From IMG/VR virus record IMGVR_UViG_3300032240_000787, positions 1-53,919 of that record: DNA of 53,919 nucleotides; one strand, given 5' to 3'. Within the stretch, counting starts at the first letter, position 1. The number at the start of each line of letters is the position of its first letter. Origin of the DNA: a virus. Taxonomy: Duplodnaviria > Caudoviricetes. Of the stretch, positions 28,570 through 47,476 are shown piece after piece. Both the position numbers and the translations under genes were made by a program. Under the pieces are notes generated by a model that was not told where the DNA came from, searched no databases, and was given only the letters and a program-made list of their open reading frames with translations.

Positions 28570-31500
28570 ATGGCAAAGAAACCTTACCGCGACCCGAAGA
28601 CCACCAAGATTGAGGACTGGAAGTGGAAGGAACTGCCTGCCGTTCTCAAATCTGTGCCGCTGACGGCAATTCCCGACTACATCCAGAAGGGGTATGGCGG
28701 CTTCATGAACGAGCAACTGTCGCGTGCCAAGGCCGGAGAGTTGACTCCCCGGGATCTGCTCAAGGCATACACCATCACCCAGTCGAGCATTGGCCGTGGT
28801 GGACTGTCACATGCGACGGCCACCAAGACTGGCATGCGCCTGCCAAACACCGGCGAAGAAATCAGGCCGGAAGGTGCGTTCGCTGAGTGGCTTGGGTCGC
28901 CCATGGGCCAAAAGTATTTGGACATGGCGTCGCGTGGTGAAGTTGACCCACGGGTGCTGAGTGACATCCAGCAGAAGTTCGCCCCGTTTGGCAAGCAGAA
29001 CCAACTGGCCGAGCAGATGACATATGCGGTGCAAAACATGCCGGGCATGGCCAAGACATTAAACAGCGCCATTACCGGGCCGACTGAAGACTACCGGGAC
29101 TGGGCGGAGCAGATGAAGGGCATTGCAGGGGCCAAATCGGGCTTTGTAGGCTCGATGTTGGGCCGGGGTGACTTACCTACACTGGACGCCCGTCAATTGA
29201 ACCTACACGCCCTTCCGGCCAATGTGGGCATCTCGTCGATCATGAACCGTGGCAAGGGCAAGGGCGCTCGTGAGGCTGTTGACCGCCTAATTGCGCGGCA
29301 GAATGCCATGGGGTTATCAATTGACCCGTCTCTCAAGCCGCACTACCAGCATTTGGCGCATCATGCTGTGTGGGATGCTGTGGGCAACAACCAGACAACG
29401 CACGGCGACATCATCAAAGCTATGCGCGGGTATGACAAAGGCGGACGAGCAGAGCCAACGCAAGAGCAGATGCTTGCAGAACTCCAGCAAGCCAACCGCC
29501 CATACTTCGGTGGTGCTGGCACCAAAAAGTACGCTGGAGCCAAGAAACGCGCAGAGCAGGCTGACGTGAACCTGTTGCCCGATCCCAAGACTTATGCGGC
29601 GGTGCAGGGCTTCCTTGGCACGCCACCCAACGAGCAGGGCTTCAGCGTCCTGCACCCCGACGCGGCAGGCATCCGGCAGGCAGGCGAGGCAGGCTTCTAC
29701 GGCGGCATCGGAACGCAGTTGTTGCCCCTTGCAAGCGCCCTAAAGACTCGTGTTGGACAGTTGCCCCCAGCCGACCCACGCATGCGTCAGGCTGGCGTCA
29801 TCAAGCTGCCGGGAGGCAACTGGCTGAGTGGTAGCGTAGAAAAGTCATTGGCTGATCTAAAGCGCCCTGACCGTGCAACTGGTGGTCGAAGTGACCCCAA
29901 AGCAAGTATGGCTGAGATGAAGGCTACATACACGCCAGAAGTCCTTGCAACTATGTCGCCTGAGACAAAAGCGCATGTTGCAACAGCCATGCAGGATTTA
30001 GAGCGCAAGATTGCTTTGAATGATTGGGTCGACCGCAACCTGACCAACTACGTCAAGAAGCAGATGGCCACGCCGGACGACCCGGTGCGCAAGCTGGCCG
30101 AGCAAGGCATATTGCATAAACCTCAGGCACCATATTCCTATCAAAACGCCACTGAAGCCGCAAAGAAAAGAGAAGCCTATGGCGGCAGTAGGCAAGCACA
30201 ATCCAATTTGGCAAGGCAATGGGAAGATGAGTCCGACTTAGCCATCAATGCGCCGACTGCAAGTACCATCAGGACAAATGAATCCCTGTATCGGGACAAC
30301 CCATGGATTGAGAAACTGTCGCCGGAAGATCGCGTTTATGTGTTGAACAAACCGGGTTATCGAGAGCCTGAAATCAATAGCCTTGGCTTCGACCACATCA
30401 TGGACGTACTCCGCGAAGATGTCGCCGCTGGGCGCATCCGCCCTGAGCAGTTGAACAAGGTCAGCATGGAGCAGGCAGTGCGCCGTACCCATGAGTACGA
30501 CCAAGAGATAGCCAAGAGGATGCGTGAAGCCGCCATCAAGAACACTGAGGGCATGCCCGTCCACAAGGAGTACCCAGAGGGCTACAAGTGGATTGAATTA
30601 AAGTTGCCAGAAGCCAAAGTGCCAGAGGGGGCAACATGGGAAGAGTACAACGGCATTCAACGTCTTTTTGGCCCTAAAGGCGAGTCACTTAGTTTGGGCG
30701 CTACCAAAGATGAGGCAATCAAATTATTGAATCGGGAAGAGCGTGAAAAGGTTCTTGAGGACGCCTTGAAGTACGAAGGCGAGACCATGGGCCACTGCGT
30801 TGGCGGGTACTGCCCTGACGTGCTGGAAGGCCGCTCCCGCATTTATTCCCTGCGTGATGCCAAGGGTGAGCCGCATGTGACAATTGAGACCGAGCCAAAC
30901 CCACAACCATATCCTGTCAGCGGAGAAGCGTTTGCCATGCTTCCGCAGGCAACCAAGGCTCAGTATGGGCAACATGTGCGCGAGTGGCGGCAACGCAACC
31001 CTCACATTCAAGAGTTGACAGACGAGCACACAGCGCAGGCTTTACGTGAAGCTGGTGTGCCGCCTTTGCCTGATCGCATCGTCCAGATCAAGGGCAAGCA
31101 GAATGCCGCACCCAAAGAAGACTACCTGCCGTTCGTGCAGGACTTTGTGAGGGGCGGTAACTGGTCTAAAGTTGGTGACTTCCATAACACTGGCCTAATT
31201 CGCAAGAGTGACTTGATTGACAAGTTTTCGCCAGATGAGTTGGACGCAATTGGCGCTGGAGAATACTTAACTAAAGCCGAGCATGATGATTTATTGCTCA
31301 AGGCATTGCAGCCACCACTTGAAGGCAAGAAGCGTGGCGGCGTGGTTAAGATGGTCAAGGGCAGCGACCAGATGGCAATTGACGCGATGAATTTGGCCAC
31401 ATGCGGCTGCAACGTACAACACAAAGCCGATGGAGGCACCGTGAAACCATTCGATTACGAGAACCCCAGTCACGTTCAAAACGTGGCGAACATTGCGGCC

Positions 31501-34308
31501 AAGCACCGCGACTTCAACAAGATCCCTGATGTGGCCAAGCACTTGGCCGGATCCCTGTCGCAGGGCAGCTACAAGATCATTGAAGACCCCCGCATTCAGA
31601 GCGCCATCAAGCAGGCTGGCCACAGCGGTTACTTCATTAACCACAAGAACGGCAAACAGCAAATTGTCCAGAAGGCTGACGGCGGCATGGTGAGTTCAAT
31701 TGAGCAAATGAAGGCTCAAATGATGGCACGTCGGGCACCGGCTTCACTGAGCCAACTGCAGTCCATTGGCGTAAACGAAGCCCCAAGCCTTGGCGTGAAG
31801 GCTTATGTGCCCCCTCGTGGCCAATCCATGGATGGCACGATGCCTTTTGGCGGCGTGGACATGAGCAGACTCAACCCCGGGCAACAACTGATGTCTGCAC
31901 AGCCGCCTCAGCAGCCCCAAGGCGCTCCCGGTGGCCCTCAGGCTGGCCCCAGCGGCCCTACGCCGCCCATGGGCAACATGTTGCAGATGACCCCACAGGG
32001 CCAAGCAATGGCCGCTATGGGCGGCAACCAGCCACCACAGCAGCCTCCCCAGCAACCCCCGCAGGGCATGGCCGATGGTGGCGGCGTGAATGGCAACATC
32101 CAGTTGAATGTGCCCTTCTCGACCGGCGGGAACAACAATCAATCCAGTCAGTCTGGTCAGGTGACATCACTGAGCGACATGGTGGGAAGCAACTCACTAA
32201 TGCCCCAGCCGTACCAACAGCCATCTTCCAATGACCAGCAGTCGTCCCAACAGAACGACCAGCAGTCCTACCAGCAGGACGCACAGCAAAGCGACCAAAT
32301 CCCGCAGTCGGGCATGGATCGCACGCCCATTGGCGACAAGACGGGTGGCCCCATCGGATATGCAGGCGGTGGCCGCACAAGGATGCCATCTGTTGACCAG
32401 ATGAAAATGGAGTTGTCCAACAAAAAAAAAGTTCCGTGCATGACGGACAGTCATGGCTACGCTGATGGTGGTCAAGTGTTTGAAGAGACCGAGCCGCCCA
32501 AGCAGACCGTGAAGGCGTACAAGCTGTTCCGTGCCGACAAAAAGAAGCCCGGGAAACTGTTTCCGTTGTTTGTGGACGCCAACACGCCCGTTGAGATGGG
32601 CAAATGGCTGGCCGCAAAAGAAGGCGAGATGCGCGGCAACAAGGTCAAATCCAAGATCGGCGACCTCGCGTACCGTCCGGGCTGGCATGCAGGCGACCTG
32701 CCCATTGCCACCCACATCGGCGAGAAGTCTCACCCCAAGCTGACCGCTCCTGACGCTCGTCCTGAGCACCATGTGTGGGCCGAAGTGGAGATGCCCCACG
32801 ATGTTGACTGGCAGTCAGAAGCCAACAAGCGCGGAACAAACACCCGTGGAAACATTATCCCGGTGAAGGCGCACATCACTGACCAGATCCCTCACGGTGG
32901 CCACTACCGTTACAAGACCAACCCCAACATGACCGGCAATTGGCTGATCGGTGGGGCAATGAAGGTCAATCGCGTGCTGTCGGACGCCGAAGTCAAGAAG
33001 ATCAACAAAGCCGCTGGCACTGCAGACCTGCCCCGCTTGAAAAAGCAAAAGCTGTCCGACTTTGGATTTTCCAATGGCGGTAGCACCACCAAGGGGTATG
33101 TCACTCACACTCCGCTCAATCCGCACCCGGAGGTCGGAAATCGCTTTGTGGCAACGCCTCAAGGCAACCTTGCAAACCGCAAAAATTTCAACATTGAAAA
33201 ATACGAGAACAAAGGTTCAATTGTTCCAATCCCATACGATGCGACGACCCGCGACATGCTGGTGTCGGAAATCTCCGGCCACCAACTGCAACGCCCCTTG
33301 TTGACCGAGGGCGGTTTTGATTACTCGCTGGACAAGGGAAACATGGCTCAAAACATTGGCGGAGCATCTAATCTTGGGATTGCCAGCCGTGTGCAAAAGC
33401 GTGTTGACCAAGCCGCACAAGAGCATCCCGGTGATGTTTTTCTTGTGCCAAACACAATGAGCGACAGCGATTTGGTGAAGAACTATCCAGAGAACTTTTC
33501 TCACCACCCCGTCCACATCATCATGGACTTGATGGAACAACGCCAACTGAACAAAAAAACCCTTGACGCTTTGACCAAAGACCTGCGCAGTCAAGTTGAA
33601 CTTGTCAGAACGCCAAAGGGGATTGTCAAAACCCAGCCGTACAAAAACTTTGTCGGCTTCGGTCATCCTGAAATGCACGACCAGATCAGGTTTGGCGGCA
33701 GAAATTTGGAAACAACCGCTGGCAATTTGCGCAAAAAGATTGTGGAGCGACTGGGTCAAGTCAACATGCAAAAGCTGTTGGACTACAACATTGGCGACGT
33801 GCGTGCTGGCATCCTTGATCCCAACATCATGACCGACCCCAAGGCATACATGGGCCACACATTTGTGAAGGCAAAACCCGGAGCGCCACTGCGTCTGAGC
33901 AAACATGGCTCTTACGACACCGACTACACCGGCAAGAATATGGGCGGCATGGGAGGCAACCGCCCTCTCGAAATTATGATGCCTGATGTGTATGAGGACA
34001 TTGAAAAAGAACTTTTGCAACGTCCAAAAAAGAGCGAAAAATCATCTTTACAGCAACGTGCTCAGGTGGTTGGCGCACTGGAAAAGCGCAAAGAGCGTTT
34101 TGCCCAGCCAATCAATGCCCGTGTTATCAACAACGCTGGCCTGTACGAGGAAGGGTTACGCAACGGCGAGTTCGACCCAAAGAGCATTGAATCTGTTTTG
34201 GCGTATTTCAAACGCAAGGGCGGATACAAAAAGGGCGGAAAGGTTAAACTTCACGCCAATCAAGACACCATGGCCCTTGAACTGAGCCGTAAGAAGAAAG
34301 CCAAATGA
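28570..34308 (+). CDS. Large polyvalent protein (~1912 aa): HhH-GPD-like, PcfJ-like, Q/P-rich, ART-like and unknown domains separated by xxxGG motifs
   Basis: KGIAGAKSGF..GDLPTLD; EGETMGHCVGGY..IYSLRD..VTIE..QIKG; AYKLFR..RPGWH..VWAEVE; between terL and portal. Confidence 0.7.
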   Translation: MAKKPYRDPKTTKIEDWKWKELPAVLKSVPLTAIPDYIQKGYGGFMNEQLSRAKAGELTPRDLLKAYTITQSSIGRGGLSHATATKTGMRLPNTGEEIRPEGAFAEWLGSPMGQKYLDMASRGEVDPRVLSDIQQKFAPFGKQNQLAEQMTYAVQNMPGMAKTLNSAITGPTEDYRDWAEQMKGIAGAKSGFVGSMLGRGDLPTLDARQLNLHALPANVGISSIMNRGKGKGAREAVDRLIARQNAMGLSIDPSLKPHYQHLAHHAVWDAVGNNQTTHGDIIKAMRGYDKGGRAEPTQEQMLAELQQANRPYFGGAGTKKYAGAKKRAEQADVNLLPDPKTYAAVQGFLGTPPNEQGFSVLHPDAAGIRQAGEAGFYGGIGTQLLPLASALKTRVGQLPPADPRMRQAGVIKLPGGNWLSGSVEKSLADLKRPDRATGGRSDPKASMAEMKATYTPEVLATMSPETKAHVATAMQDLERKIALNDWVDRNLTNYVKKQMATPDDPVRKLAEQGILHKPQAPYSYQNATEAAKKREAYGGSRQAQSNLARQWEDESDLAINAPTASTIRTNESLYRDNPWIEKLSPEDRVYVLNKPGYREPEINSLGFDHIMDVLREDVAAGRIRPEQLNKVSMEQAVRRTHEYDQEIAKRMREAAIKNTEGMPVHKEYPEGYKWIELKLPEAKVPEGATWEEYNGIQRLFGPKGESLSLGATKDEAIKLLNREEREKVLEDALKYEGETMGHCVGGYCPDVLEGRSRIYSLRDAKGEPHVTIETEPNPQPYPVSGEAFAMLPQATKAQYGQHVREWRQRNPHIQELTDEHTAQALREAGVPPLPDRIVQIKGKQNAAPKEDYLPFVQDFVRGGNWSKVGDFHNTGLIRKSDLIDKFSPDELDAIGAGEYLTKAEHDDLLLKALQPPLEGKKRGGVVKMVKGSDQMAIDAMNLATCGCNVQHKADGGTVKPFDYENPSHVQNVANIAAKHRDFNKIPDVAKHLAGSLSQGSYKIIEDPRIQSAIKQAGHSGYFINHKNGKQQIVQKADGGMVSSIEQMKAQMMARRAPASLSQLQSIGVNEAPSLGVKAYVPPRGQSMDGTMPFGGVDMSRLNPGQQLMSAQPPQQPQGAPGGPQAGPSGPTPPMGNMLQMTPQGQAMAAMGGNQPPQQPPQQPPQGMADGGGVNGNIQLNVPFSTGGNNNQSSQSGQVTSLSDMVGSNSLMPQPYQQPSSNDQQSSQQNDQQSYQQDAQQSDQIPQSGMDRTPIGDKTGGPIGYAGGGRTRMPSVDQMKMELSNKKKVPCMTDSHGYADGGQVFEETEPPKQTVKAYKLFRADKKKPGKLFPLFVDANTPVEMGKWLAAKEGEMRGNKVKSKIGDLAYRPGWHAGDLPIATHIGEKSHPKLTAPDARPEHHVWAEVEMPHDVDWQSEANKRGTNTRGNIIPVKAHITDQIPHGGHYRYKTNPNMTGNWLIGGAMKVNRVLSDAEVKKINKAAGTADLPRLKKQKLSDFGFSNGGSTTKGYVTHTPLNPHPEVGNRFVATPQGNLANRKNFNIEKYENKGSIVPIPYDATTRDMLVSEISGHQLQRPLLTEGGFDYSLDKGNMAQNIGGASNLGIASRVQKRVDQAAQEHPGDVFLVPNTMSDSDLVKNYPENFSHHPVHIIMDLMEQRQLNKKTLDALTKDLRSQVELVRTPKGIVKTQPYKNFVGFGHPEMHDQIRFGGRNLETTAGNLRKKIVERLGQVNMQKLLDYNIGDVRAGILDPNIMTDPKAYMGHTFVKAKPGAPLRLSKHGSYDTDYTGKNMGGMGGNRPLEIMMPDVYEDIEKELLQRPKKSEKSSLQQRAQVVGALEKRKERFAQPINARVINNAGLYEEGLRNGEFDPKSIESVLAYFKRKGGYKKGGKVKLHANQDTMALELSRKKKAK

Positions 34309-36827
34309 TGGACGAACTCGACCCAACTTTGGAGCCTCAGGTCGCCGAGCAGGACGATGGCAGTGCCATTGTCGATCTGCCCGAAATCCAGATGGAAGAG
34401 CAGCCCGACGGGTCTGCCATTGTCACCTTGGACGACGGCCCGGAGGAGAACCCGGACTTTTACTCCAACATGGCCGAATCGTATGACGACTACGAACTGG
34501 GCCGACTAGCGATGCGCTACCTCGACCTCTTGGAAAAAGACAAGAGTGCTCGACAGCAACGCGACAAGCAGTACGAAGAGGGCATCAAGCGCACTGGCAT
34601 GGGCAATGACGCCCCGGGTGGCGCTACCTTCATGGGCGCGTCCAAGGTGGTTCACCCAGCCATGGCAGAGGGCTGTGTGGACTTTGCGGCCAAAGCCATC
34701 AAAGAGATGTTCCCGCCTGATGGCCCTGTCCGCACCAAAGTGCTGGGCAAGATGGACGAGTTGAAGCAGGAGAAATCAGAGCGCAAGCGTGATTTCCTGA
34801 ACTGGCAGATCACCGAGCAGATTGAAGAGTTCCGTGACGAGCAAGAGCAACTGCTGACTCAACTGCCTCTGGGCGGCTCACAGTACTTCAAGCTGTGGTT
34901 TGACGAGCAGAAGAAGCGCCCATGCGTGGAGTTTTTGCCAATCGACCGGGTGATCCTACCGTTCGCCGCCACCAACTTCTACACCGCCCAGCGTGCGGCT
35001 GAAGTCCACGAGATCACCGAGTACGAGTTCAAGCGTCGGGTATCTGGCGGCATGTACCGTGACATCAATCTAGTGTCTTCGACCATGGAGCCGGAGCAGA
35101 CCAAGTCACAAAAAGCCAACGACAAAATTGAAGGCAAAAAGTGGGAAGACAACGAGGACGGCCTGCGCGAGGTCTACCACGTCTATACCCATCTGGAGTT
35201 GGGGTACGACAAGTACAGCAAGGGTGAGATGGCCCCGTACATCCTCATGATTGACAAGTTGGATCAAGAGGTGGTTGGCCTGTACCGCAACTGGGAAGAA
35301 GAAGACGAGACCATGTCCAAGCTGGACTGGATTGTGGAGTTCAAGTTCATCCCATGGCGCGGTGTCTATGCCATCGGCCTGCCCCATCTGATCGGTGGCC
35401 TGAGCGCGGCCTTGACCGGCTCCCTGCGTGCTTTGCTGGACAGCGCACACATCAACAACGCCGCCACGATGCTGAAGTTGAAGGGCGCAAAGATGTCTGG
35501 CCAGAGCCAGCAGGTTGATGTGACCCAGATCGTGGAGATCGAAGGCGCACCCGGCGTGCAAGACATCCGCCAGATCGCTATGCCCATGCCGTTCAACCCG
35601 CCCAGCGAGGTGCTTTTTAAGCTGCTGGGCTGGCTTGATCAAGCGGCCAAGGGGGTTGTGTCCACCAGCGAGGAAAAGATCGCTGACGTGAACTCCAATG
35701 CACCTGTGGGCACCACTCAGGCTTTGATTGAGCAGGGCGCGGCGGTGTTCTCGTCAATCCACGCCCGTCTGCATGAGTCGCAAGCCCGTGTGCTGAAGAT
35801 CTTGTGCCGCCTCAACCGCTGGCACTTTGAAGAGATGCGCAAGGGCGACATAGTTGCCGATCTGGAAATCAACCGAGAAGACTTTCAGAAGAACACCGAC
35901 GTCATCCCGGTGTCTGACCCTCACATCTTCAGCGAAACCCAGCGCATGGCCCAAATGCAGGCCGTGCTGGCGCTGGCTGAGAAGCATCCCGAAAACTTTG
36001 ACATGAATGCTGTGTTGAGCCGTTCGCTCAAGCAGATGAAGATCCCCAACATCAACGAGTTGATGAAGGACGTGCCAGCCCCCGAGCAACGCACCTCTGC
36101 GGACGAGAACGCCGCCATGCTGATTGGCCAGCCGTCCTATGCGTATATGCAACAGGATCACATTGCGCACATTCAGGATCACCTGCAGTTCGCCATGAAC
36201 CCGTTCTTGGGCCAGTCGCCATTTGCGGATCCCAACTACCTGAACAACCTGATCGAGCACCTGAAACAGCACATGACGCTTTGGTACCTGAACCGAAGCA
36301 ACGGCTATGTGGCTCAGACTCGCGGTGGAAAACCTGTGGACAACTACGACAACCCAGTTTTGACTGGCACCATCGACCAGTTGTACACCACGGTCGGCGC
36401 TCACGTTCTGCTGGACACCAAAGATGTGTTCCAACAGTTCCAGCCAGCGTTCCAGCAACTCATTCAGCAGGCTCAACAGCGCAAACAGCAGCCCCAGCCA
36501 CTGCCGCCGGACGCACAGGTGGTCAAGGACACCAGCATGGCCGAAACCCAGCGCAAAGCGCAGGCAGACCAGCAACGTGCCCAAGAGGCGCAGGCCAAGA
36601 TTGCCGCACAGGCCGCAGAGCACGACAAAGAAATATCGGCCAAAATTGCCATTGAGAATGCCAAACTCACCGGGCAAGTGATTCAAGAGAATGTTGCCCA
36701 GCAAAACGCCATGCAGATGCACAGTGTGGAGCAAAACAACGACATGCAAAAGCATATGATGGATGCTATGCAACAACCCGCAGCACCTGCTGCACAACCT
36801 CAAGGAGTGCCAAATGGCAGTGTCTGA
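34305..36827 (+). CDS. Portal protein
   Basis: 840 aa; VVHPAMAE, GSQYFKLWFD, GLPHLIGGL, APVGTT; Q-rich C-terminal barrel; position. Confidence 0.88.
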   Translation: MMDELDPTLEPQVAEQDDGSAIVDLPEIQMEEQPDGSAIVTLDDGPEENPDFYSNMAESYDDYELGRLAMRYLDLLEKDKSARQQRDKQYEEGIKRTGMGNDAPGGATFMGASKVVHPAMAEGCVDFAAKAIKEMFPPDGPVRTKVLGKMDELKQEKSERKRDFLNWQITEQIEEFRDEQEQLLTQLPLGGSQYFKLWFDEQKKRPCVEFLPIDRVILPFAATNFYTAQRAAEVHEITEYEFKRRVSGGMYRDINLVSSTMEPEQTKSQKANDKIEGKKWEDNEDGLREVYHVYTHLELGYDKYSKGEMAPYILMIDKLDQEVVGLYRNWEEEDETMSKLDWIVEFKFIPWRGVYAIGLPHLIGGLSAALTGSLRALLDSAHINNAATMLKLKGAKMSGQSQQVDVTQIVEIEGAPGVQDIRQIAMPMPFNPPSEVLFKLLGWLDQAAKGVVSTSEEKIADVNSNAPVGTTQALIEQGAAVFSSIHARLHESQARVLKILCRLNRWHFEEMRKGDIVADLEINREDFQKNTDVIPVSDPHIFSETQRMAQMQAVLALAEKHPENFDMNAVLSRSLKQMKIPNINELMKDVPAPEQRTSADENAAMLIGQPSYAYMQQDHIAHIQDHLQFAMNPFLGQSPFADPNYLNNLIEHLKQHMTLWYLNRSNGYVAQTRGGKPVDNYDNPVLTGTIDQLYTTVGAHVLLDTKDVFQQFQPAFQQLIQQAQQRKQQPQPLPPDAQVVKDTSMAETQRKAQADQQRAQEAQAKIAAQAAEHDKEISAKIAIENAKLTGQVIQENVAQQNAMQMHSVEQNNDMQKHMMDAMQQPAAPAAQPQGVPNGSV

Positions 36828-37139: not shown

Positions 37140-37217
37140 GCCCCACTCCGGGGCCGAGGCCGCACTGCAAAGTGCTTTAACGATGCACCTGAAATATGGT
37201 GTTTTAGGAGAGTGAGT

Positions 37218-37673
37218 ATGAGTGAGAAAGAACCGATTCCGACGATTGACGGAGCCGCAGGTATGTCTGATCCAGTTGAACTGGCTTGGGCATTCCCGGA
37301 AGTCAACCCGGGTCAAAGTCCGTTTGGTGGGCGAGTGATCGTCCAGTTGCGCCGCATCAAGAAAAAGGCGGGGCGCATCATCATCGTTGATGAGACCAAA
37401 GAGGCTGAAAAGTGGAACAACATGATCGGCAAGGTGGTTTCGATTGGCCCGTTGGCCTTCAAAAACCGCGAAACCATGTCGTCATGGCCGGAAGGTAGCT
37501 GGGCGCAAGTCGGCGACTTCGTGCGTGTGCCTCGATGGGGCGGCGACCGATGGGAGCGCAAGGCACCAGACACCGAAGAGGGCGAAGATCCCGTGCTTTT
37601 CATGACCCTGAATGACCACGAACTGATTGCAAAGGTCACTGATGACCCGCTTTCGTTCAAGGCTTACGTTTAA
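37218..37673 (+). CDS. groES: Co-chaperonin GroES (Cpn10)-like
   Basis: PFGGRVIV, IIIVDETKE mobile loop, GKVVSIGP, QVGDFV..GG, LNDHELIA. Confidence 0.85.
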   Translation: MSEKEPIPTIDGAAGMSDPVELAWAFPEVNPGQSPFGGRVIVQLRRIKKKAGRIIIVDETKEAEKWNNMIGKVVSIGPLAFKNRETMSSWPEGSWAQVGDFVRVPRWGGDRWERKAPDTEEGEDPVLFMTLNDHELIAKVTDDPLSFKAYV

Positions 37674-38642: not shown

Positions 38643-38663
38643 TCAATACTTGGAGAACTGACA

Positions 38664-39212: not shown

Positions 39213-39227
39213 CCCAAGGAGTTTCAA

Positions 39228-39842
39228 ATGAGTTCTACCTCTGCTCCGTTTGGCTTGCGTCCTGCGTTCCATCCTTCTGGTCTGGATCGCGCACAGGCGC
39301 TTGCTGGCGGTATCGTGTCGGGCTATAGCACCGACATCCTCAAGGGCGCACCCGTGCGCTACAACAGCACTGCCGGTACATCCGTCGCCGCTGGCACCAT
39401 CACCAACGCAGCCTCTGGCGGCGCATGGTCTGGCGCTTTCGCTGGCGTTGAGTGGACTGACACCACTGGCCGTCGTCGTATCAGCAACTACTGGCCTGCC
39501 AGTACCACGTACCAGACTGGTTCGTGCGTTGCCTACTTCTACAACGACGCCAACATCGTGTACGAAATCCAGTCTGACGCGACCATCGCTCAGACCTCGC
39601 TGGGTGGCGAATACGACTTCAGCGCCGGTACAGGCTTCACCGTGACCTCTGGCTCGACCACTACTGGCCTGTCTTCGACAGCGTTGGGCGTGTCCACCGC
39701 CAAGTCCAACGGCTCTCAGGGTCAGATGCGTGTCGTTGACATCGCTCCCTACCCGGACAATAACTGGGGCGATTCCTATGTGATCGTCCGTGTCGTCAAC
39801 GCTCAGTCTCAGTACTTCGGTTCTGTGACCGCTATCGTTTAA
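39228..39842 (+). CDS. Head decoration/cement-like protein
   Basis: APFGLRP..GAFAGVEW..YEIQ; directly before the capsid gene. Confidence 0.6.
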   Translation: MSSTSAPFGLRPAFHPSGLDRAQALAGGIVSGYSTDILKGAPVRYNSTAGTSVAAGTITNAASGGAWSGAFAGVEWTDTTGRRRISNYWPASTTYQTGSCVAYFYNDANIVYEIQSDATIAQTSLGGEYDFSAGTGFTVTSGSTTTGLSSTALGVSTAKSNGSQGQMRVVDIAPYPDNNWGDSYVIVRVVNAQSQYFGSVTAIV

Positions 39843-39855
39843 GGAGGGCTAAACC

Positions 39856-40770: not shown

Positions 40771-40783
40771 GCAAAGCAGGATG

Positions 40784-40812
40784 GGGGTGAAGTTAAACTT
40801 CACCCCTTTTTT
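40784..40812 (+). terminator. Rho-independent terminator after the capsid gene
   Basis: GGGGTGAAG-ttaaa-CTTCACCCC-TTTTTT. Confidence 0.9.
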
Positions 40813-40845
40813 CTAACCTCGTCAAACTTTTCATGGAGAACGACG

Positions 40846-41829: not shown

Positions 41830-41841
41830 TAGGAGGCCATC

Positions 41842-43083
41842 ATGGGTCAATTCAAACCAATGGTCAAAATGATGACCGACGAGCCTTCAGTCATTCTGAA
41901 GCTCAAAAAAGGCGGCAAAGTTGCCAAGAAGGCCGATGGCGGCTTCATGCCTATGGCCACTCCGCAGCCTGCTCCCATGGGCATGCCTGCTCGTGGTGGC
42001 GATATGCAAGGCGCTGCTCCTATGCGCCCCGGCATGATGGATCGCATTCGTGCGATGCGTGCGGCTCGTCCTCCCCGTTCCCCAGCGGCTATTGGCGCAA
42101 TGGGCGGCATGAACCCCAACATGATGAAAAAGGGTGGCAAGGCCATGGCCAAGCATGAGGATGCTGCCCAAGACCGCGCCATGATCAAGAAGGCTCTGGC
42201 TGGCAAGAAATTTGCCACTGGCGGCAAGATTGATGCAGTCATGGACAAGACCACCATCAAGGGCAATGCAGGCAAGTTCTTGAATACCAAGGTGATGGAC
42301 GGCGACAAGAATGACGGCGCCAAGGGCACCAAGGGCGTTAAGTCTGGCAATGCTGGTGGTTACGCTAATGGCGGCACCATCTCTGGCAATGCTGGCAAGT
42401 TCTTGAACACCAAAGTCATGGACGGTGACAAAAACGACTCGGCCAAATCCACTGGCAAAGGCGTCAAAATGGGCAATAACGGCGGCTATGCCAAGGGTGG
42501 CACCATTGGTGGCAGCAACTGGGAAAACCGGCCTGCTGACACCGCAAAACCCGGCAAATCGGGTGGTGCAACTGGTGGTGTGCGCAATGGCAATGCTGGC
42601 GGCTACAAGAAAGGTGGCGCAGCAAAAAAAGCCTATGCCACGGGGGGTAACGTCGTAGACGATGGCCGCGCCGTGGCAATGCCCAAAAAGCATGTCTCTT
42701 GTCCTGTAGCAAACAGCCTGCAGTCTGGCACTTTCAAAAAGGGTGGCAATGTGGGCCGCTATCGTGATGGCGACAGTGTGGAATCCGATTCCACCCCATC
42801 CAATTCCTCAAACATGAGGAGTTTGGCTCGGGGCGGCAAGGCAAAGAAGTATGAGGCTGGTGGATCCACCAACCCCAATGACAAACTCATTGTGAAAGAT
42901 CCAAAAGCCGTTGCTGACAAGGCCAGCCGTGAACTTGAAGATGCTTTGAACCCGTTGTCGTTCATCCAAGAGATGTATGGCAAAGCCAAAGACTATCTCA
43001 AGCCAGCGCCAAACAGCGTGACAAAAATCGAGAAATCGACGACAGTCACTCCACCCGCAAAAAAGCGCGGCGGTAGCTGCTAA
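41842..43083 (+). CDS. K/G-rich protein built from about 12 xxxGG-delimited peptides
   Basis: LKKGG, KADGG, MKKGG, FATGG, YANGG, YAKGG, YKKGG, YATGG, FKKGG, LARGG, YEAGG, KKRGG; AGGAGG RBS. Confidence 0.75.
   Translation: MGQFKPMVKMMTDEPSVILKLKKGGKVAKKADGGFMPMATPQPAPMGMPARGGDMQGAAPMRPGMMDRIRAMRAARPPRSPAAIGAMGGMNPNMMKKGGKAMAKHEDAAQDRAMIKKALAGKKFATGGKIDAVMDKTTIKGNAGKFLNTKVMDGDKNDGAKGTKGVKSGNAGGYANGGTISGNAGKFLNTKVMDGDKNDSAKSTGKGVKMGNNGGYAKGGTIGGSNWENRPADTAKPGKSGGATGGVRNGNAGGYKKGGAAKKAYATGGNVVDDGRAVAMPKKHVSCPVANSLQSGTFKKGGNVGRYRDGDSVESDSTPSNSSNMRSLARGGKAKKYEAGGSTNPNDKLIVKDPKAVADKASRELEDALNPLSFIQEMYGKAKDYLKPAPNSVTKIEKSTTVTPPAKKRGGSC
42254..42438 (+). repeat. Imperfect tandem duplication (~123-nt period) encoding GNAGKFLNTKVMDGDKND twice
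   Basis: Read directly; identical peptide with synonymous differences. Confidence 0.85.
42778..42794. repeat. 17-bp palindrome copy 5 (central C, opposite orientation)
   Basis: GTGGAATCCGATTCCAC. Confidence 0.95.
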
Positions 43084-43087
43084 ACAA

Positions 43088-43112
43088 GTAGGGGCTTCGG
43101 CCCCTGCTTTTT
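43088..43112 (+). terminator. Rho-independent terminator
   Basis: GTAGGGGC-TTCG-GCCCCTGC-TTTTT. Confidence 0.9.
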
Positions 43113-43127
43113 ATTCATAGGTGAATC

Positions 43128-45722
43128 ATGTCCCAACTCGTCGTCTACACAGGCCCAAGCAGCCAATCTGACAATCAACTGCGCACGCAGACTTCTCAAC
43201 GCTCTGCTGGCTATGACCCGGTTGACAAACTGCGCATTTCCGCGCCTCAAGCGCTGATCGACACTGACTTTGAATATGGCCAACAGCCAACAAAGTGGGA
43301 GTCGATCGCCCTTCAAAATTCTCGCCAAAGCTGCTACTACATTCCCCAGCAGCCCTTGACAATCACTGGCGTCACTGGCGCTGGCACCACCACCGTGACC
43401 ATCACAGGCACTTTTGTCGTCGCGGCAAACTCACTGATCTACGTGCAAAACGCCTCTGATGCCAACGCAAACGGATGGTGGTACACCGTCGCAGGTGGCA
43501 CTAATACCATGACGGTGATCACCACCAACACGGTGGCATCTGGCAACCAGTACAACGCTGCCCTGACCTATGTGTATCTGGGATACTTCTATTCCTCGTG
43601 TGGTATGCCTGTTGGCGTGAACGCCATCACCAACGTGGGCACCACTTGCACGGCCACCACCACCAACCCGCATGGTTTGTCTGCTGGATCGTTTGTCTAT
43701 GTGACCAACACCACAGCAACCACCAACGCCCCCAACGGCGCATGGGTTGTGGCGACTGTTCCAACGGCCAACACATTCACTTTCACTGTGGCCGTAGCCC
43801 CGACTGGCACGATTGCCAACTCTGCGGCTTCCAACGTGATCTATGCCCGTCCCGCTGGTTATGTTGAGTCCCGTTCGTTTGACGGCGGCGTGGCTTTCTC
43901 TGCTGGCGCAACTGTGCCCAACAGCCAACTAATCCGCCAGACTCGCCGGTATTTCCGCTACCAGTCTGGCAAGGGCATTCAGTTCTCGACCGGCACTTCA
44001 ATGTGCCCAGCGCTGTTCACCACCAGCTTGACCTCATCTGGCACCACCGTGACCGTCAGCACCCGGTTTGCGCACAACCTTGCTGTTGGTTGCACGATTG
44101 TGGTCACTGGGGCTGATCAAACAGCCTATAACGGCACTTTTACCATTGCGACGGTACCAAGCCCTACCACCTTCACATACACGGCCTTGACGACCCCTTC
44201 TGCGTCTCCTGCAACGGGTTTGATCATCAAGGTGAGTCCGACCAACTGGTATGGCTCGTCCAACCGAGTTGGCATGTTCGACCAGCAGAACGGCATGTTC
44301 TTTGAGTACGACGGCCAAACCCTGTATGCAGTGTGGCGCAACAGTGTTAATCAGATTAACGGAACCGTGTCTGTAACCCAAGGTTCATCTGCTGTGACCG
44401 GCGCCGGCACGCAATTCAGCACTCAACTGCAACCCGGTAGCTTCATTGTGATCCGTGGCCAGTCGTATCGCGTGGTGAGCATCGCAAGCGACACGTCGAT
44501 GTATATCAGCCCTGAGTACCGTGGCACGACTTTGGCTGGTGCTTTGGTCTCCAAGACGATTGATACCCGTGTCGCTCAGTCTCAATGGTTTGACCCTCTG
44601 AATGGCCTTGGCCCATCGGGGTATAGCCTTGATCTGACCAAGATGCAGATGTGGTTCATCGACTTCTCGTGGTATGGCGCTGGCGTGATTCGTTGGGGTG
44701 TTCGTACAACAGGCGGAGCAATTGCCTATGTGTACACCCAGCAGAACAACAACCAGCGTTTTGAAGCCTACATGCGCTCCGGCAACATGGCTTCGCACTA
44801 TGAGTCAAGCGGCCTTACACCAGTCACTTACCTGACTGCCACATTGGCTTCCGGCACTGGATCTGGCGGCACCATCAACGTGGCCGATACGTCTGGTTTC
44901 GCACCGTCGGGCAACATCAAAGTGCAGGCGGCAGGTCAGACTGGCGTGGTGGAATACATCAGTTATTCGTCTAAAACTTCGACGACGTTGACCATCAATG
45001 CTCGTGCGCAAACTGGCGGTACTGGCTCTGCACAGATTTTCACCTACAGCGCCACGGCTCCGATTGGCGTTGAATATGCATCGCCAGACACTGCGGCGTC
45101 CCTGTCGCACTGGGGTTCTTCGGTGATCATGGATGGCCGATTCGACGACGACAAGTCGCTGATCTTCAACTATGGCACGACCACTGCTGTTTCGACGTCC
45201 AGCACGACGCCTGTTGTGCTGTTGGCCATTCGAATTGCTCCTGCCGTGGACAACGGCCAGACCGGCTTGTTAGGAGCCAAAGAAATCATCAACCGCATGC
45301 AACTGCAGTTGGACTCTCTGGGTATCGTGACCACCGGCAACACCTACCTGATCAACCTGATCCTGAACGGTTACGCTTCTGGCGCTCTGTCTGGCGGTTT
45401 TATCGCTCCAATTCAGCAGGCCAACGGCATCACCTCTTCGTTGGCGCAGATTGCTGTGAACACCAATGCCGTGAACGTGACTGGCGGCGAGTCGGTGGCG
45501 GCGGCTTATTGCAACGCAAACGGTGTGACCACCTTGGATTTGTCCGGCGTGCGCGATCTGGGCAACTCCATCTTGGGTGGCGGCACCAGCAATACGGTGC
45601 CTACCTCGCAGGCTGGTTTCTACCCTGACGGCCCGGACATCATGTATGTGGTGGCCCAAGCGGTGAGCGCAACAGCAGGCACCATCTTGGCCCGTTTGTC
45701 TTGGAAAGAAGCGCAGGCATAA
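43128..45722 (+). CDS. Large beta-rich virion structural protein
   Basis: 864 aa; repeated T..HGL/HNL..V.V beta modules; QTRRYFRYQSGKG; WYGAG.IRWG. Confidence 0.65.
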   Translation: MSQLVVYTGPSSQSDNQLRTQTSQRSAGYDPVDKLRISAPQALIDTDFEYGQQPTKWESIALQNSRQSCYYIPQQPLTITGVTGAGTTTVTITGTFVVAANSLIYVQNASDANANGWWYTVAGGTNTMTVITTNTVASGNQYNAALTYVYLGYFYSSCGMPVGVNAITNVGTTCTATTTNPHGLSAGSFVYVTNTTATTNAPNGAWVVATVPTANTFTFTVAVAPTGTIANSAASNVIYARPAGYVESRSFDGGVAFSAGATVPNSQLIRQTRRYFRYQSGKGIQFSTGTSMCPALFTTSLTSSGTTVTVSTRFAHNLAVGCTIVVTGADQTAYNGTFTIATVPSPTTFTYTALTTPSASPATGLIIKVSPTNWYGSSNRVGMFDQQNGMFFEYDGQTLYAVWRNSVNQINGTVSVTQGSSAVTGAGTQFSTQLQPGSFIVIRGQSYRVVSIASDTSMYISPEYRGTTLAGALVSKTIDTRVAQSQWFDPLNGLGPSGYSLDLTKMQMWFIDFSWYGAGVIRWGVRTTGGAIAYVYTQQNNNQRFEAYMRSGNMASHYESSGLTPVTYLTATLASGTGSGGTINVADTSGFAPSGNIKVQAAGQTGVVEYISYSSKTSTTLTINARAQTGGTGSAQIFTYSATAPIGVEYASPDTAASLSHWGSSVIMDGRFDDDKSLIFNYGTTTAVSTSSTTPVVLLAIRIAPAVDNGQTGLLGAKEIINRMQLQLDSLGIVTTGNTYLINLILNGYASGALSGGFIAPIQQANGITSSLAQIAVNTNAVNVTGGESVAAAYCNANGVTTLDLSGVRDLGNSILGGGTSNTVPTSQAGFYPDGPDIMYVVAQAVSATAGTILARLSWKEAQA

Positions 45723-45723
45723 C

Positions 45724-46476
45724 ATGGGAACGTACTCTTCCGTAACTCGCTCGGGGGCTTTTGAGCCTTTTGAGTTGCAGGTGGCTCGTGGCCAAATTCA
45801 AGGTCACACAGCGGTCAACATTTTTGGCTTCAGCACCACAGTCGGATCGACTGCACTTGGGCCGTTATGGGAGGGTTTGACGCTATCTGGGGGGTCTTAT
45901 GCATACCCCGGCGCCGCAGCCCAGTTGGTGCTGGCCAGTGATTCGGCTTCCGACACGTCGGCTCTCAGCATCCGCATTGATGGCCTTGGTGCTGGCTTTG
46001 TTCCGTTGACTGAGACTATTGCGCTGAATGGCACCTCCAACGTCACCACCACAAATTCGTTTTTGCGCATCAATCAGATGTCAACAACGAACGGTTTGAA
46101 CGTCGGCAACATTACCGCAAAGATCAGTAGCACCACTTACGCCAAGATCAGCGCAGGCATTGGCCAAACGCAGATGTCCATTTACACCGTCCCGGCAGGA
46201 TATACGTTTTATTTGTCATATCTGCAGGCAGACGCAAGTATTGGCTTCACGTCAAGCAACTACATGAAGTTTGCTGAGTACAACAAGGACAACACCACTG
46301 GTGAAATCAATTTGTTAAACCAGTCGACCTTTGTGCAAGCGTTCCAGTTCCCATTCACCTGCCCAGTCCCGCACTTGGAAAAGACTGACATTCAATTTCA
46401 GGTTGTGTCAAACACTGGAAGCCCGTTCACCGCCAACATTTATGCTGGCGGCATTTTGATCAAAAACCCGGACTAA
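45724..46476 (+). CDS. Virion structural protein
   Basis: 250 aa; LQVARGQI.GH, IYTVPAGYTFY, EKTDIQ. Confidence 0.6.
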   Translation: MGTYSSVTRSGAFEPFELQVARGQIQGHTAVNIFGFSTTVGSTALGPLWEGLTLSGGSYAYPGAAAQLVLASDSASDTSALSIRIDGLGAGFVPLTETIALNGTSNVTTTNSFLRINQMSTTNGLNVGNITAKISSTTYAKISAGIGQTQMSIYTVPAGYTFYLSYLQADASIGFTSSNYMKFAEYNKDNTTGEINLLNQSTFVQAFQFPFTCPVPHLEKTDIQFQVVSNTGSPFTANIYAGGILIKNPD

Positions 46477-46480
46477 GACT

Positions 46481-47083
46481 ATGCCAGCAAAATCTCAAGC
46501 CCAGTTCCGCCTCATGAAGGCAATTGAACACAACCCTAAAGTCGCCAAGAAGGTCGGCATGTCTTCGGCCAAAGCAGCCGAGTTCACCGAGTCCAACAAG
46601 GGCAAGAAGGCCTACAGCAAGCTGCCGGTCAAGAAGGCTTATGGCGGATCCATGGATGATGATGGGTATAGCCGAGCAGGCACTTCACGCAATCGCTTGG
46701 CTCGTGATGCTCGTGATTACGACAGCGACATTGATTATTACAACGATGTCAATGGCCGTGACGATGATGACGATCAACAACAAACCCCTTCTCCTAAAAA
46801 ACGACTTTTTGATCGCATAGGCAAACAATACGTTGCTGCCAACAAAAAAATCCAAAAGCAAAAAAACGAAGCAAAAGAGGCCAAAGACGAAGACGCCTTG
46901 AAAAGGCTCAAAGATCGAGAAGAAAGAATTGGTATTGGATATGTCACAAGGATTGCTCCAATAAGCCATGCTAATAATTCCCAAATGCTCGAAAAAAGAA
47001 GAAAAGAGTGGTCTGAAAAAATTGGCAATGGCAAGCCTGCACCGTTCAAATCTGGTGGCAGTTCAAAAAAAACTTGCTGGTGA
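46481..47083 (+). CDS. Small basic protein (MPAKSQAQ..) carrying an AT-rich insert between two xxxGG motifs
   Basis: KAYGG 46634-46648 and FKSGG 47045-47059 bracket an A-rich segment. Confidence 0.7.
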   Translation: MPAKSQAQFRLMKAIEHNPKVAKKVGMSSAKAAEFTESNKGKKAYSKLPVKKAYGGSMDDDGYSRAGTSRNRLARDARDYDSDIDYYNDVNGRDDDDDQQQTPSPKKRLFDRIGKQYVAANKKIQKQKNEAKEAKDEDALKRLKDREERIGIGYVTRIAPISHANNSQMLEKRRKEWSEKIGNGKPAPFKSGGSSKKTCW

Positions 47084-47086
47084 AAT

Positions 47087-47476
47087 ATGAAAAACGGTCT
47101 GTACGCCAACATCCACGCCAAGCAGGAGCGCATCAAGAATGGCTCCGGCGAGAAGATGCGCAAGCCCGGAACCAAGGGTGCGCCCACCGCCAAGGCTTTC
47201 AAAGAGTCGGCCAAGACCGTCAAAATGAAGGACGGTGGCCCAAGTCTGGCCATTGGTCGTGGCGAGAAGTTGCCTGCAGATCAGGGCGCTGGCTTGACCG
47301 CCAAAGGTCGCGCCAAGTACAACCGCGAGACTGGATCGCACTTGAAGGCTCCACAGCCTGAGGGCGGTGCTCGGCGTGACTCTTTTTGCGCGAGAATGGA
47401 GCCTGTGGCTCAGAAGAGCGAAAAAGGCAGTCGAGCGCGTGCGTCCATGCAGCGTTGGAACTGCCCCGGATGGTAA
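47087..47476 (+). CDS. Fusion of two small basic phage proteins joined at MKDGG
   Basis: GLYANIHAK..KGAPT module, then GLTAKGRAKYN..RRDSFCARM..RWNC module. Confidence 0.7.
   Translation: MKNGLYANIHAKQERIKNGSGEKMRKPGTKGAPTAKAFKESAKTVKMKDGGPSLAIGRGEKLPADQGAGLTAKGRAKYNRETGSHLKAPQPEGGARRDSFCARMEPVAQKSEKGSRARASMQRWNCPGW

What the first reader, a model, noticed from the sequence alone, without database searches (positions are those of the whole stretch)
28570..47476. Genome-wide xxxGG motif delimiting domains in late proteins: candidate polyprotein-processing or virion-cargo system
In the 1912-aa protein the motif falls at apparent domain borders: YDKGG 29431, KKRGG 31327, KADGG 31423 and 31672, MADGG 32068, YAGGG 32359, YADGG 32458, FSNGG 33067, YKKGG 34225. 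It is often followed by a second motif (EQMLAEL, EQMKAQM, DQMKMEL, DTMALEL). It recurs about 12 times in 41842-43083, twice in 46481-47083, once in 47087-47476 and three times in ejection protein 3849-7175, while I see no such pattern in portal, capsid or replication proteins. Di-glycine boundaries recall adenovirus protease, papain-like viral protease and Ubl-protease sites. Model: effectors are strung as GG-delimited cassettes, loaded into the head and cut into ejectable units.
Basis: partly seen in the sequence, partly recalled or inferred. Interest (0 to 1): 0.88.

Follow-up and report, generated by a model that had tools for sequence, protein, structure and literature searches.

The report
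Gly-Gly junction peptide in phage cargo proteins
A short peptide ending in two glycines really does mark the joints between swappable modules of a giant late protein of this uncultured phage and fills a second lysine- and glycine-rich protein, but whether the joints are cut, bound or only flexible is still not known.

Summary
The other 43 ORFs are at chance.

All nine listed sites are exact. They sit where homology blocks with 120 metagenomic relatives end, and those relatives carry the same blocks in permuted order. All nine lie in low-confidence linkers of two AlphaFold models.

The unbiased consensus is [K/M/Y/F/L]-A-x-G-G-[S/A]-[V/I]. Codons differ between sites, so selection acts on the peptide. 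Relatives carry domains named for polyvalent proteins: ART-PolyVal, LPD23 and PBECR5.

Cutting is not shown. No peptidase was found by Pfam, PHROGs or six six-frame family searches. Two leads from earlier scan notes held partly:
- Phage T5's tape-measure cut lies in PR|AEGGMM.
- The crAss001 virion cargo protein gp45 has four such motifs.

This scan reported the same motif before on other DNA (e1-5956398, e1-5956385).

Verdict: a real junction peptide of a polyvalent cargo protein and a new variant of a known kind. A processing site is the leading reading, at about 0.4.

The parts
28570..34308 (+). Polyvalent (multi-cassette) late protein, 1912 aa from ATG 28570 (1931 aa from GTG 28513). The stop overlaps the portal ATG (ATGA).
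   Evidence: ORF list. Pfam PcfJ at aa 751-795. phrog_30118 at aa 1332-1520. 536 relatives at E<=0.001. Start and overlap read.
29431..29445 (+). Junction site YDKGG (aa 307-311), between cassette A and the helix EQMLAEL
   Evidence: Lies in a pLDDT<50 segment of model 2.
31327..31341 (+). Junction site KKRGG (aa 939-943), at the end of cassette B
31423..31437 (+). Junction site KADGG (aa 971-975), at the start of cassette C
31672..31686 (+). Junction site KADGG (aa 1054-1058), at the start of cassette D
32068..32082 (+). Junction site MADGG (aa 1186-1190), at the end of cassette D
   Evidence: 40 HSP ends fall in the 20-residue bin holding it.
32359..32373 (+). Junction site YAGGG (aa 1283-1287), before the helix DQMKMEL
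   Evidence: It lies at the end of the model, so the pLDDT evidence is weak here.
32458..32472 (+). Junction site YADGG (aa 1316-1320), at the start of cassette F
   Evidence: (HSPs start at 1317)
33067..33081 (+). Junction site FSNGG (aa 1519-1523), between cassettes F and G
   Evidence: (HSPs end or start at 1523)
34225..34239 (+). Junction site YKKGG (aa 1905-1909), before the C-terminal tail
34240..34305 (+). Conserved C-terminal tail KVKLHANQDTMALELSRKKKAK: a short helix plus a basic end
   Evidence: The same tail ends many relatives that differ upstream. Helix predicted at aa 1917-1926.
29797..31317 (+). Cassette B (aa 429-935), PcfJ-like, confidently folded
   Evidence: pLDDT mostly above 80. 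Pfam PcfJ. No fold match.
32473..33066 (+). Cassette F (aa 1321-1518), phrog_30118 domain
   Evidence: The domain stands alone without the motif in other lineages.
33082..34224 (+). Cassette G (aa 1524-1904), folded, weakly YTH/ASCH-like
   Evidence: pLDDT mostly about 80-90. VIA-align Z 6.1, rmsd 4.4, 144 aligned to a YTH domain, which is below the tool's noise guide.
41842..43083 (+). 413-aa Lys/Gly-rich protein with 12 motif copies, a conserved N-terminal 25-mer and the C-terminal end KKRGGSC
46481..47083 (+). 200-aa small late protein with KAYGG (46634-46648) and FKSGG near its C-terminus (47045-47059)
   Evidence: Both sites recur in the relatives' homologues in MW202545.1 and L012.
47087..47476 (+). 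129-aa small late protein with MKDGG (47225-47239) between an N-terminal module and DUF6321
   Evidence: site kept in 9 of 9 homologues found in the loci
34305..36827 (+). Portal protein, the downstream neighbour whose start overlaps the polyvalent stop
   Evidence: phrog_1216
27031..28470 (+). Terminase large subunit, the upstream neighbour

Best explanation
SHOWN
- The gene between terminase and portal encodes a phage 'polyvalent' protein. It is a string of at least seven independently folding cassettes, which relatives shuffle and permute.
- The cassettes are joined by a lineage-specific peptide, [K/M/Y/F/L]-A-x-G-G-[S/A]-[V/I]-x-P. It is often followed by a short amphipathic helix (..QMKxEL..).
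- The same peptide punctuates a Lys/Gly-rich, probably disordered (inferred from composition) 413-aa protein 12 times. It also sits at module joints or ends of two small late proteins.
- It is conserved as a peptide, not as DNA.

INFERRED
- These proteins are cargo carried in the head.
- The peptide is a recognition signal read by a protein, most likely an endopeptidase.
- Cutting at or next to it would separate the cassettes, trim short terminal tags and chop the 413-aa protein into small basic peptides.
- The enzyme is unknown. It could be a phage protein of unrecognised fold or a host enzyme.
For: - Enrichment in two proteins only, and in 120 relatives of each: 1158 vs 357 sites and 1350 vs 296 sites, 120 of 120 enriched.
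- 56% of 441 internal BLAST block ends lie within 10 aa of the nine sites, which cover 9% of the sequence.
- Cassette order is permuted. In P0002, F lies at 7-207 and A at 205-511; in P0011, A lies at the C-terminal end.
- 9 of 9 sites lie in pLDDT<50 segments, which make up 28% and 34% of the two models.
- 0 of 31 motifs lie inside Pfam envelopes in six relatives. ART-PolyVal, PBECR5 and GDSL domains start 5-43 aa after a motif.
- Unbiased logo anchored on A.GG (n=491): position -3 is K/M/Y/F/L in 83%, position +3 is V/I in 61%.
- Synonymous codons differ between sites.
- In locus L019 a fusion joins two small modules through MASGG. The part after GG begins where the window's free-standing 129-aa protein begins.
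- Eight GG pairs are invariant in 26 413-like proteins, while mean column identity is only 42%.
- Phage T5 pb2 is cut after R1127 (passage in PMC10038345). That is ..VPR|AEGGMM.., the only A.GG in pb2.
- crAss001 virion cargo gp45 has 4 motifs against 0.4 expected, and 0 occur in the 18 other proteins checked.
Against: - No cut has been observed in any protein of this lineage.
- No peptidase was found. Pfam covered 44 of 45 ORFs and PHROGs covered 37 ORFs.
- Six-frame searches for JAB, M23, C48, S78, C5 and C39 gave 0 hits.
- The only 'protease' label is a PHROG of fused protease-capsid proteins, matched over its capsid half by the capsid gene.
- The capsid protein is small (304 aa) and a separate scaffold-like gene is present. 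That fits assembly without a protease (inference).
- The T5 cut is before Ala, not after GG. T5's capsid protein reads K|A at residues 159-160 (that residue 160 starts the mature protein is recalled). T5 may therefore simply cut basic|Ala.
- The crAss001 papers I read in passages report no cleavage of gp45.
- Motifs 2-8 residues from C-termini make little sense as cut sites unless a tag is being removed.
- The record is estimated 93% complete.
Confidence: 0.4

Rival explanations
1. Docking or handling tag. The peptide is not cut. It is bound by a virion part such as the capsid inner wall, portal or tail channel. Cargo would be recruited into the procapsid or held and threaded out in order, much as encapsulin cargo-loading peptides or the T4 capsid-targeting sequence work (both recalled).
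For: - The motif also stands at protein ends: KKRGGSC*, FKSGGSSKKTCW*, and YKKGG plus a 22-aa tail.
- The 413-aa family carries 9-15 copies, which would make it a multivalent binder.
- The large protein and the motif-rich protein occur together. A sister clade (L024, L026, L029) has neither, and no motif in any listed ORF.
- In crAss001, gp45 segments next to the motifs are seen bound to portal and tail barrel, with no cleavage reported.
Against: - No partner is known.
- Position x is acidic or basic at will.
- Cassette permutation shows no positional need.
- The sister-clade contrast is probably one evolutionary event.
Confidence: 0.25
2. Passive hinge and swap joint. The peptide is only a flexible, protease-resistant connector. 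It is kept because recombinants joined at linkers stay folded, and it may ease domain-by-domain unfolding during ejection. No protein reads it.
For: - It always lies in linkers and at the exact breakpoints of cassette exchange.
- Other phage lineages in this scan use different junction words (unchecked notes).
- Domain F works without the motif in other lineages: 36 of 43 free-standing proteins on contigs of 5 kb or more lack it, as does CRP-212 gp38.
Against: - A mere hinge should not keep Ala at -2, a hydrophobic or Lys residue at -3 and Val at +3 across hundreds of diverged proteins.
- Codons differ, so DNA homology cannot be what is kept.
- It does not explain 9-15 conserved copies in a protein that has hardly any domains to join.
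Confidence: 0.2
3. A phage-encoded di-glycine cysteine protease of the adenain, Ulp1, papain-like or C39 kind cuts exactly after GG.
For: GG is followed by a small residue (S/A 38%). The layout resembles polyubiquitin: repeated units plus a short cap after the last GG, often ending in Cys (79 of 120 proteins). The comparison with polyubiquitin is recalled.
Against: - No Peptidase_C5, C48 or C39 signal in six frames, and none in the hmmscan runs.
- The hydrophobic residue is at P5 with Ala at P4. The adenain consensus (M/I/L)XGG-X (recalled) has it at P4.
- The one mapped cut in a motif-like site (T5) lies four residues upstream of that position.
Confidence: 0.05
4. Chance or composition artefact of glycine-rich proteins.
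For: Both proteins are fairly Gly-rich (9.8% and 16%). The tighter patterns I used were chosen after seeing the data.
Against:
- The still more Gly-rich ORF 49865-50869 (27.8% G) shows 2 sites against 2.3 expected.
- Flanking positions that were not part of the anchor are strongly biased.
Confidence: 0.01

Closest known systems
Polyvalent proteins of phages and conjugative elements (Iyer, Burroughs, Anand, de Souza, Aravind 2017, PMC5512222; passages read)
   Same: One polypeptide holds many unrelated domains. It is encoded among late or virion genes of a phage and is heavily shuffled. Relatives carry ART-PolyVal, LPD23, PBECR5, ASCH, SLT and GDSL domains. Processing into units has been proposed for the class.
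   Different: That paper has no occurrence of 'linker' or 'glycine', so it describes no junction peptide. Its proposed processing enzyme (the zincin-like MPTase) was not found here. This gene precedes the portal instead of following it.
Cargo protein C1 (gp45) of Bacteroides phage crAss001 (Bayfield et al. 2023, PMC10172136; passages read)
   Same: It was detected in virions by mass spectrometry. It carries four motif copies (FAEGG 260, KAFGG 329, FAYGG 559, KAKGG 825). Two follow the structured segments 214-245 and 425-552. The last lies 13 residues before a basic C-terminus, as in the window's protein.
   Different: No sequence homology was tested or seen. It has a predicted transmembrane helix and a proposed channel-forming role. 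It is not a string of enzymes. No cleavage is reported.
Cleavage of the phage T5 tape-measure protein pb2 (Linares et al. 2023, PMC10038345; passage read)
   Same: The mapped cut lies in a motif-like word (R|AEGGMM.P) at a border between two functional parts of a virion protein. The catalyst is unknown.
   Different: The cut is before Ala, not after GG. There is a single site, in a tail protein rather than a head protein. T5 has its own prohead protease gene.
Di-glycine processing of virion precursors in adenovirus and African swine fever virus, and of polyubiquitin (recalled, not tested)
   Same: Precursors are cut at GG-x. Small basic DNA-associated peptides are released. A short cap follows the last GG.
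   Different: No related protease is present here. The register of the hydrophobic residue differs. The virus realm is unrelated.
Demarcation motifs of polymorphic toxins, such as VENN in CdiA and DPxGL in Rhs (recalled, not tested)
   Same: A short conserved word marks where variable cassettes are exchanged.
   Different: Those mark a single constant-to-variable border. Here every joint of a permutable string carries the word, and so does a cassette-poor repeat protein.

Membership tests
Polyvalent proteins (Iyer et al. 2017) | Many (2-15) unrelated domains in one polypeptide | tested here: met
   At least seven homology blocks. Separately folded parts in two AlphaFold models.
Polyvalent proteins (Iyer et al. 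2017) | Carries domains characteristic of the class (LPD, ART-PolyVal, PBECR and others) | tested here: inconclusive
   The window's own protein hits only PcfJ. Relatives that share its cassettes carry LPD23, ART-PolyVal, PBECR5, ASCH, SLT and GDSL.
Polyvalent proteins (Iyer et al. 2017) | Encoded by a phage or conjugative element, in phages beside virion genes | tested here: met
   The gene lies between terminase and portal in a 53.9-kb virus record.
Polyvalent proteins (Iyer et al. 2017) | Rampant domain shuffling between relatives | tested here: met
   Order and content are permuted among 120 relatives.
Polyvalent proteins (Iyer et al. 2017) | Packaged and delivered into the host | not testable with these tools
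   Inferred from gene position and from the crAss001 gp45 parallel only.
Di-glycine protease polyprotein systems (adenain C5, Ulp1 C48, C39) | A cognate cysteine protease is encoded | tested here: not met
   0 hits at E<=1 in six frames for PF00770, PF02902 and PF03412. None in the Pfam scans of 44 of 45 ORFs. A protease of novel fold is not excluded.
Di-glycine protease polyprotein systems (adenain C5, Ulp1 C48, C39) | Site consensus with a hydrophobic residue at P4 and G-G at P2-P1 | tested here: not met
   Here Ala occupies P4 and the hydrophobic or Lys residue P5. The consensus itself is recalled.
Di-glycine protease polyprotein systems (adenain C5, Ulp1 C48, C39) | Precursors are cut at the motif | not testable with these tools
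   Needs virion proteomics.
Prohead-protease maturation with a capsid-targeting sequence (T4 gp21 or HK97 gp4 type) | A prohead protease gene in the head module | tested here: not met
   PF04586 gave 0 hits in six frames. No protease family among the head-module ORFs. PF03420 was not searched on its own.

The most novel reading that the evidence does not exclude
Tailed phages with no recognisable maturation protease run a precursor system laid out like polyubiquitin. Strings of effector cassettes, and a dedicated repeat protein found in several thousand sequence clusters, would be written with one junction word. An as yet unknown endopeptidase, either a novel-fold phage protein or a conserved host enzyme, would cut them inside the head or on entry. 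The products would be separate effectors plus a set of small basic, DNA-associated peptides. The same word in crAss001 gp45 and at the T5 pb2 cut would then reflect a shared processing code, not yet described, across distant phage groups.
Probability: 0.25. Interest if true: 0.85.

Novelty: new variant of a known kind. Interest (0 to 1): 0.6.

Why it matters
Polyvalent proteins were proposed in 2017 to be cut into separate effectors, but no cut sites are known. Here the joints are written in one exact peptide. It recurs in hundreds of shuffled relatives, in a 413-aa protein family of at least 4829 sequence clusters, and in a cargo protein of a cultured crass-like phage.

That gives residue-level predictions that a single virion mass-spectrometry experiment, or a re-search of existing crAss001 spectra, could confirm or refute. 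If the peptide is cut, a new phage or host protease is waiting to be found. If it is bound, this would be a cargo-loading code for tailed phages. Either way the word is a practical marker for cassette borders when annotating such giant proteins.

Tried and rejected
- Complex prediction of the capsid protein with residues 1-60 of the 413-aa protein gave no verdict (score 0.00, controls not run). It says nothing either way.
- Foldseek against PDB found nothing at E<=0.001 for either model.
- VIA-align gave only a weak YTH/ASCH-like match for cassette G (Z 6.1, under the tool's noise guide). I found no protease-like fold, but single cassettes were not modelled alone.
- phmmer against PDB sequences found nothing for the large protein or for the 182-aa ORF.
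- The ESM Atlas gave only unnamed viral clusters for the 182-aa ORF.
- Single-linkage clustering of inter-motif segments merged families and was dropped.
- Ideas I rejected on sequence grounds alone, each a comparison with a recalled consensus:
  - The motif mimics the GroES mobile loop that binds GroEL: only GGxV fits.
  - A GlyGly-CTERM sorting signal: the tail is not hydrophobic.
  - SEA-type G|SVVV self-cleavage: the first residue after GG (the presumed P1') is Ser in only 21%.
  - A double-glycine bacteriocin leader: the spacing is wrong.
- The N-terminal GG site of the scaffold-like protein is not kept in more distant relatives.
- Literature searches:
  - Six motif strings returned 31 papers; none of the 20 listed titles concerned phage.
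  - A search on polyvalent-protein cleavage found nothing on such a junction.
  - A marine phage proteomics paper has nothing on processing.
- Band assignments for crAss001 virion proteins are in a figure and supplements that I could not see. They might show whether gp45 runs at full length.
Full report
**What the window is.** The 53,919-base window is a whole virus record, estimated 93% complete. Nearly all genes are on the + strand.

The late region reads, in order:
- small and large terminase (26492-27034, 27031-28470);
- the large gene in question (28513/28570-34308);
- portal (34305-36827);
- a GroES-like gene and a coiled-coil scaffold-like gene;
- two small ORFs;
- a 304-aa capsid protein (Pfam Phage_capsid_4);
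- a 327-aa ORF;
- the 413-aa ORF (41842-43083);
- an 864-aa virion protein, then small ORFs and adaptor-like genes.

The likely start of the large gene is ATG 28570, with GAGG 8 nt upstream. Its stop overlaps the portal start as ATGA. My residue numbers count from GTG 28513.

- It is enriched in the 413-aa protein (12 vs 2.76, p=0.0005).
- The remaining 43 ORFs together have 28 sites against about 27 expected.
- The 'ejection protein' 3849-7175 has 6 vs 4.3 (p=0.26).
- 46481-47083 has 2 vs 0.23 (p=0.019, one nominal hit among 45 tests).

So the motif is not genome-wide. A still more glycine-rich ORF (27.8% Gly) shows no excess. The second motif is present four times against 0.013 expected.

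**Relatives.** A search of the large protein returned 536 proteins at E<=0.001 among 8000 scored. I worked with the best 120.
- They hold 1158 pattern sites against 357 expected.
- Anchoring only on A.GG (491 distinct sites) leaves the flanks free. Position -3 is K .29, M .22, Y .15, F .09, L .08. Position +2 is S/A. Position +3 is V .50, I .11. Position +5 is often P.
- The word is therefore about [K/M/Y/F/L]-A-x-G-G-[S/A]-[V/I]-x-P.
- Within the window the codons for Ala, Tyr and both Gly differ from site to site. What is kept is the peptide, not a stretch of DNA.

**Does it delimit domains?** Three independent lines say yes.
- *Homology-block ends.* Of 441 internal ends of BLAST alignments between the window's protein and the 120 relatives, 56% lie within 10 residues of the nine sites. 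Those windows cover 9% of the sequence. None of 2000 random placements of nine sites did as well. The alignments are not independent of each other.
- *Permutation.* The blocks are reordered. In P0002, block F is at 7-207, A at 205-511, B at 531-1049 and D at 1301-1559. In P0011 and P0046, block A is at the C-terminal end. Many alignments begin at 1317 or end at 1523, which is at the motif itself.
- *Structure models.* Two AlphaFold models (aa 1283-1931 with 18 rows, aa 280-1200 with 22 rows) place all nine sites in segments with pLDDT under 50. Such segments make up 184 of 649 and 316 of 921 residues. The blocks between them, B (aa 429-935) and G (aa 1545-1907), score mostly above 80. Two sites lie near model ends and the alignments are shallow, so low confidence is not proof of disorder.

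All four 'EQMxxEL'-type motifs are predicted as short lone helices inside these linkers.

In six relatives, 0 of 31 motifs fall inside a Pfam envelope. Envelopes cover 10% of residues, so this alone is weak. ART-PolyVal, PBECR5 and GDSL domains begin 5-43 residues after a motif.

**The motif is not part of the domains.**
- Domain F occurs in Roseobacter phage CRP-212 gp38 with no motif beside it.
- Of 43 short F-domain proteins on contigs of at least 5 kb, 36 have no motif on either side. The 7 that have one include the window's closest kin among them, and several carry short tails after the last GG. I dropped the other 77 of the 120 listed proteins because their contigs were short and the proteins may be truncated.

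**The 413-aa protein.** Its search returned 4829 proteins at E<=0.001 among 7999 scored.
- In the best 120, the pattern occurs 9-15 times (median 11) against 2.4 expected, and all 120 are enriched.
- The first 25 residues are almost invariant.
- 79 of 120 end in GG plus up to six residues and Cys.
- In an alignment of 26 members with 42% mean column identity, eight GG pairs are invariant.
- Spacers change length and even composition, from Lys-rich to His-rich. One relative has an extra module of about 85 residues inserted exactly between two motifs.

**Small proteins.**
- The site in the 129-aa protein lies between an N-terminal module and DUF6321. It is kept in 9 of 9 homologues found in the loci.
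- In locus L019 a 182-aa protein joins a module like the N-terminus of the 200-aa protein to the 129-aa protein through MASGG. The sequence after GG starts where the free-standing protein starts.

**Distribution.** In 29 loci found through the portal, the clade with portal identity of 55% or more has a large gene between terminase and portal. Wherever the region was covered, it also has a motif-rich protein after the capsid gene. Three loci of a sister clade (L024, L026, L029; capsid about 70% identical) have neither, and no motif in any listed ORF. This is probably one evolutionary event, so it is only a hint that the two proteins belong together.

**Class.** Relatives sharing cassettes with the window's protein carry LPD23 ('large polyvalent protein associated domain'), ART-PolyVal, PBECR5, PcfJ, ASCH, SLT and GDSL domains. 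The protein therefore belongs with the polyvalent proteins of Iyer et al. 2017. In that paper 'linker' and 'glycine' do not occur, and processing is discussed only through a zincin-like peptidase.

**Is it cut?** Nothing here shows a cut, and I found no enzyme.
- Pfam scans of 44 of 45 ORFs found no peptidase.
- PHROGs scans of 37 ORFs found none.
- Six-frame searches for Prok-JAB, M23, C48, S78, C5 and C39 gave no hit at E<=1.
- The capsid ORF matches a PHROG labelled 'head maturation protease', but only over positions 380-593 of a 668-position profile. I read this as the capsid half of fusion proteins.

**Leads from earlier scan notes, tested here.**
- *Phage T5.* A passage of Linares et al. 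2023 places the pb2 cut after R1127. In the T5 record this is ..NSFVPR|AEGGMMYP.., the only A.GG in the 1219-residue protein. The match to the word is fair, but the cut lies before Ala, not after GG. T5's capsid protein reads K|A at 159-160. I recall, but did not check, that residue 160 is the mature N-terminus. T5 may therefore simply cut basic|Ala.
- *crAss001.* Bayfield et al. 2023 detected gp45 in virions. They saw residues 214-245 in the tail barrel and 425-552 on the portal. gp45 has FAEGG 260, KAFGG 329, FAYGG 559 and KAKGG 825, which is 4 against 0.4 expected (p=0.001, with a pattern fixed beforehand on other data). The 18 other crAss001 proteins I checked have none. That paper has no occurrence of 'cleav', 'proteoly' or 'protease'. 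The 2018 gel bands are listed without assignments in the text I could see.

**Weighing.** A strictly conserved seven-to-nine-residue word in otherwise variable linkers argues for a reader protein. The layout fits a processing site best: independent, permutable units, a repeat protein with conserved words and free spacers, short caps after the last word, and fusion joints that coincide with free N-termini.

Three things keep a docking or threading tag and a passive hinge alive: no enzyme was found, words occur a few residues from C-termini, and crAss001 shows no reported cleavage. I put processing at about 0.4, docking at 0.25 and a passive joint at 0.2.

**Novelty.** The class is known. The junction word is not in the papers I could search. 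This scan has already reported the same word in two other genomes (e1-5956398, e1-5956385). This window adds another genome of that lineage, the permutation evidence, the codon evidence, the sister-clade contrast and direct checks of both leads.

Noticed in passing
37212-37673: A GroES-like (Cpn10) gene lies directly after the portal in a 54-kb podovirus-like genome (Pfam E=6.5e-4, below the gathering score; phrog_3188 E=1.4e-6). It is conserved in all related loci, including the sister clade.
   Followed up: partly
3849-7175: The 1108-aa Gly/Ala-rich protein has a tape-measure-like stretch near its C-terminus (phrog_6090, aa 968-1012) and two copies of a ..FTV.P..L.AAPV.. repeat around aa 808-830 and 910-925. 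It is probably an ejection or internal protein. Its GG count is at chance.
   Followed up: partly
34240-34305 and relatives' C-termini (P0001-P0120, L003-L027): A conserved C-terminal tail (..D-T-M-x-L-E-L-S-R-K-x-K-K-A-K) ends many relatives whatever cassette precedes it, sometimes without a GG word before it. Alternative tails also occur (..IEERPL, ..PLLPKFKE). The Lys-rich end overlaps the portal ribosome-binding region, so part of the conservation could act at the DNA level.
   Followed up: partly
L003:8023-9732 (413-like protein): One subclade has replaced Lys by His in the spacers (KHGGK.HKMHHKATGG) while keeping every GG word. It also carries an inserted module of about 85 residues flanked by two words.
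   Followed up: no
49865-50869: A 334-aa ORF has 27.8% glycine and long GGxGG runs. It sits in the tail-fibre region and matches no family.
   Followed up: no
47486-48556 and 52915-53556: Two ORFs match the SU10 adaptor family: the second strongly (E=8.7e-23), the first weakly (E=3.2e-4) after an F5/8 type C-like part. The record is circularly permuted, so the tail genes run across its ends.
   Followed up: no
3079-3618: A 179-aa ORF carries YADGGHC inside a Cys/His-rich N-terminal part. It has no Pfam hit and was not scanned against PHROGs. I take the motif match here as chance.
   Followed up: no
L032 (phage T5 pb2, residues 1120-1160): The T5 pb2 cut site word (PR|AEGGMMYPGV) directly precedes the small C-terminal peptidase part, pb2C. 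Lambda gpH is also cut in a glycine-rich region, at an unknown site and by an unknown catalyst (passage in PMC12617516).
   Followed up: partly
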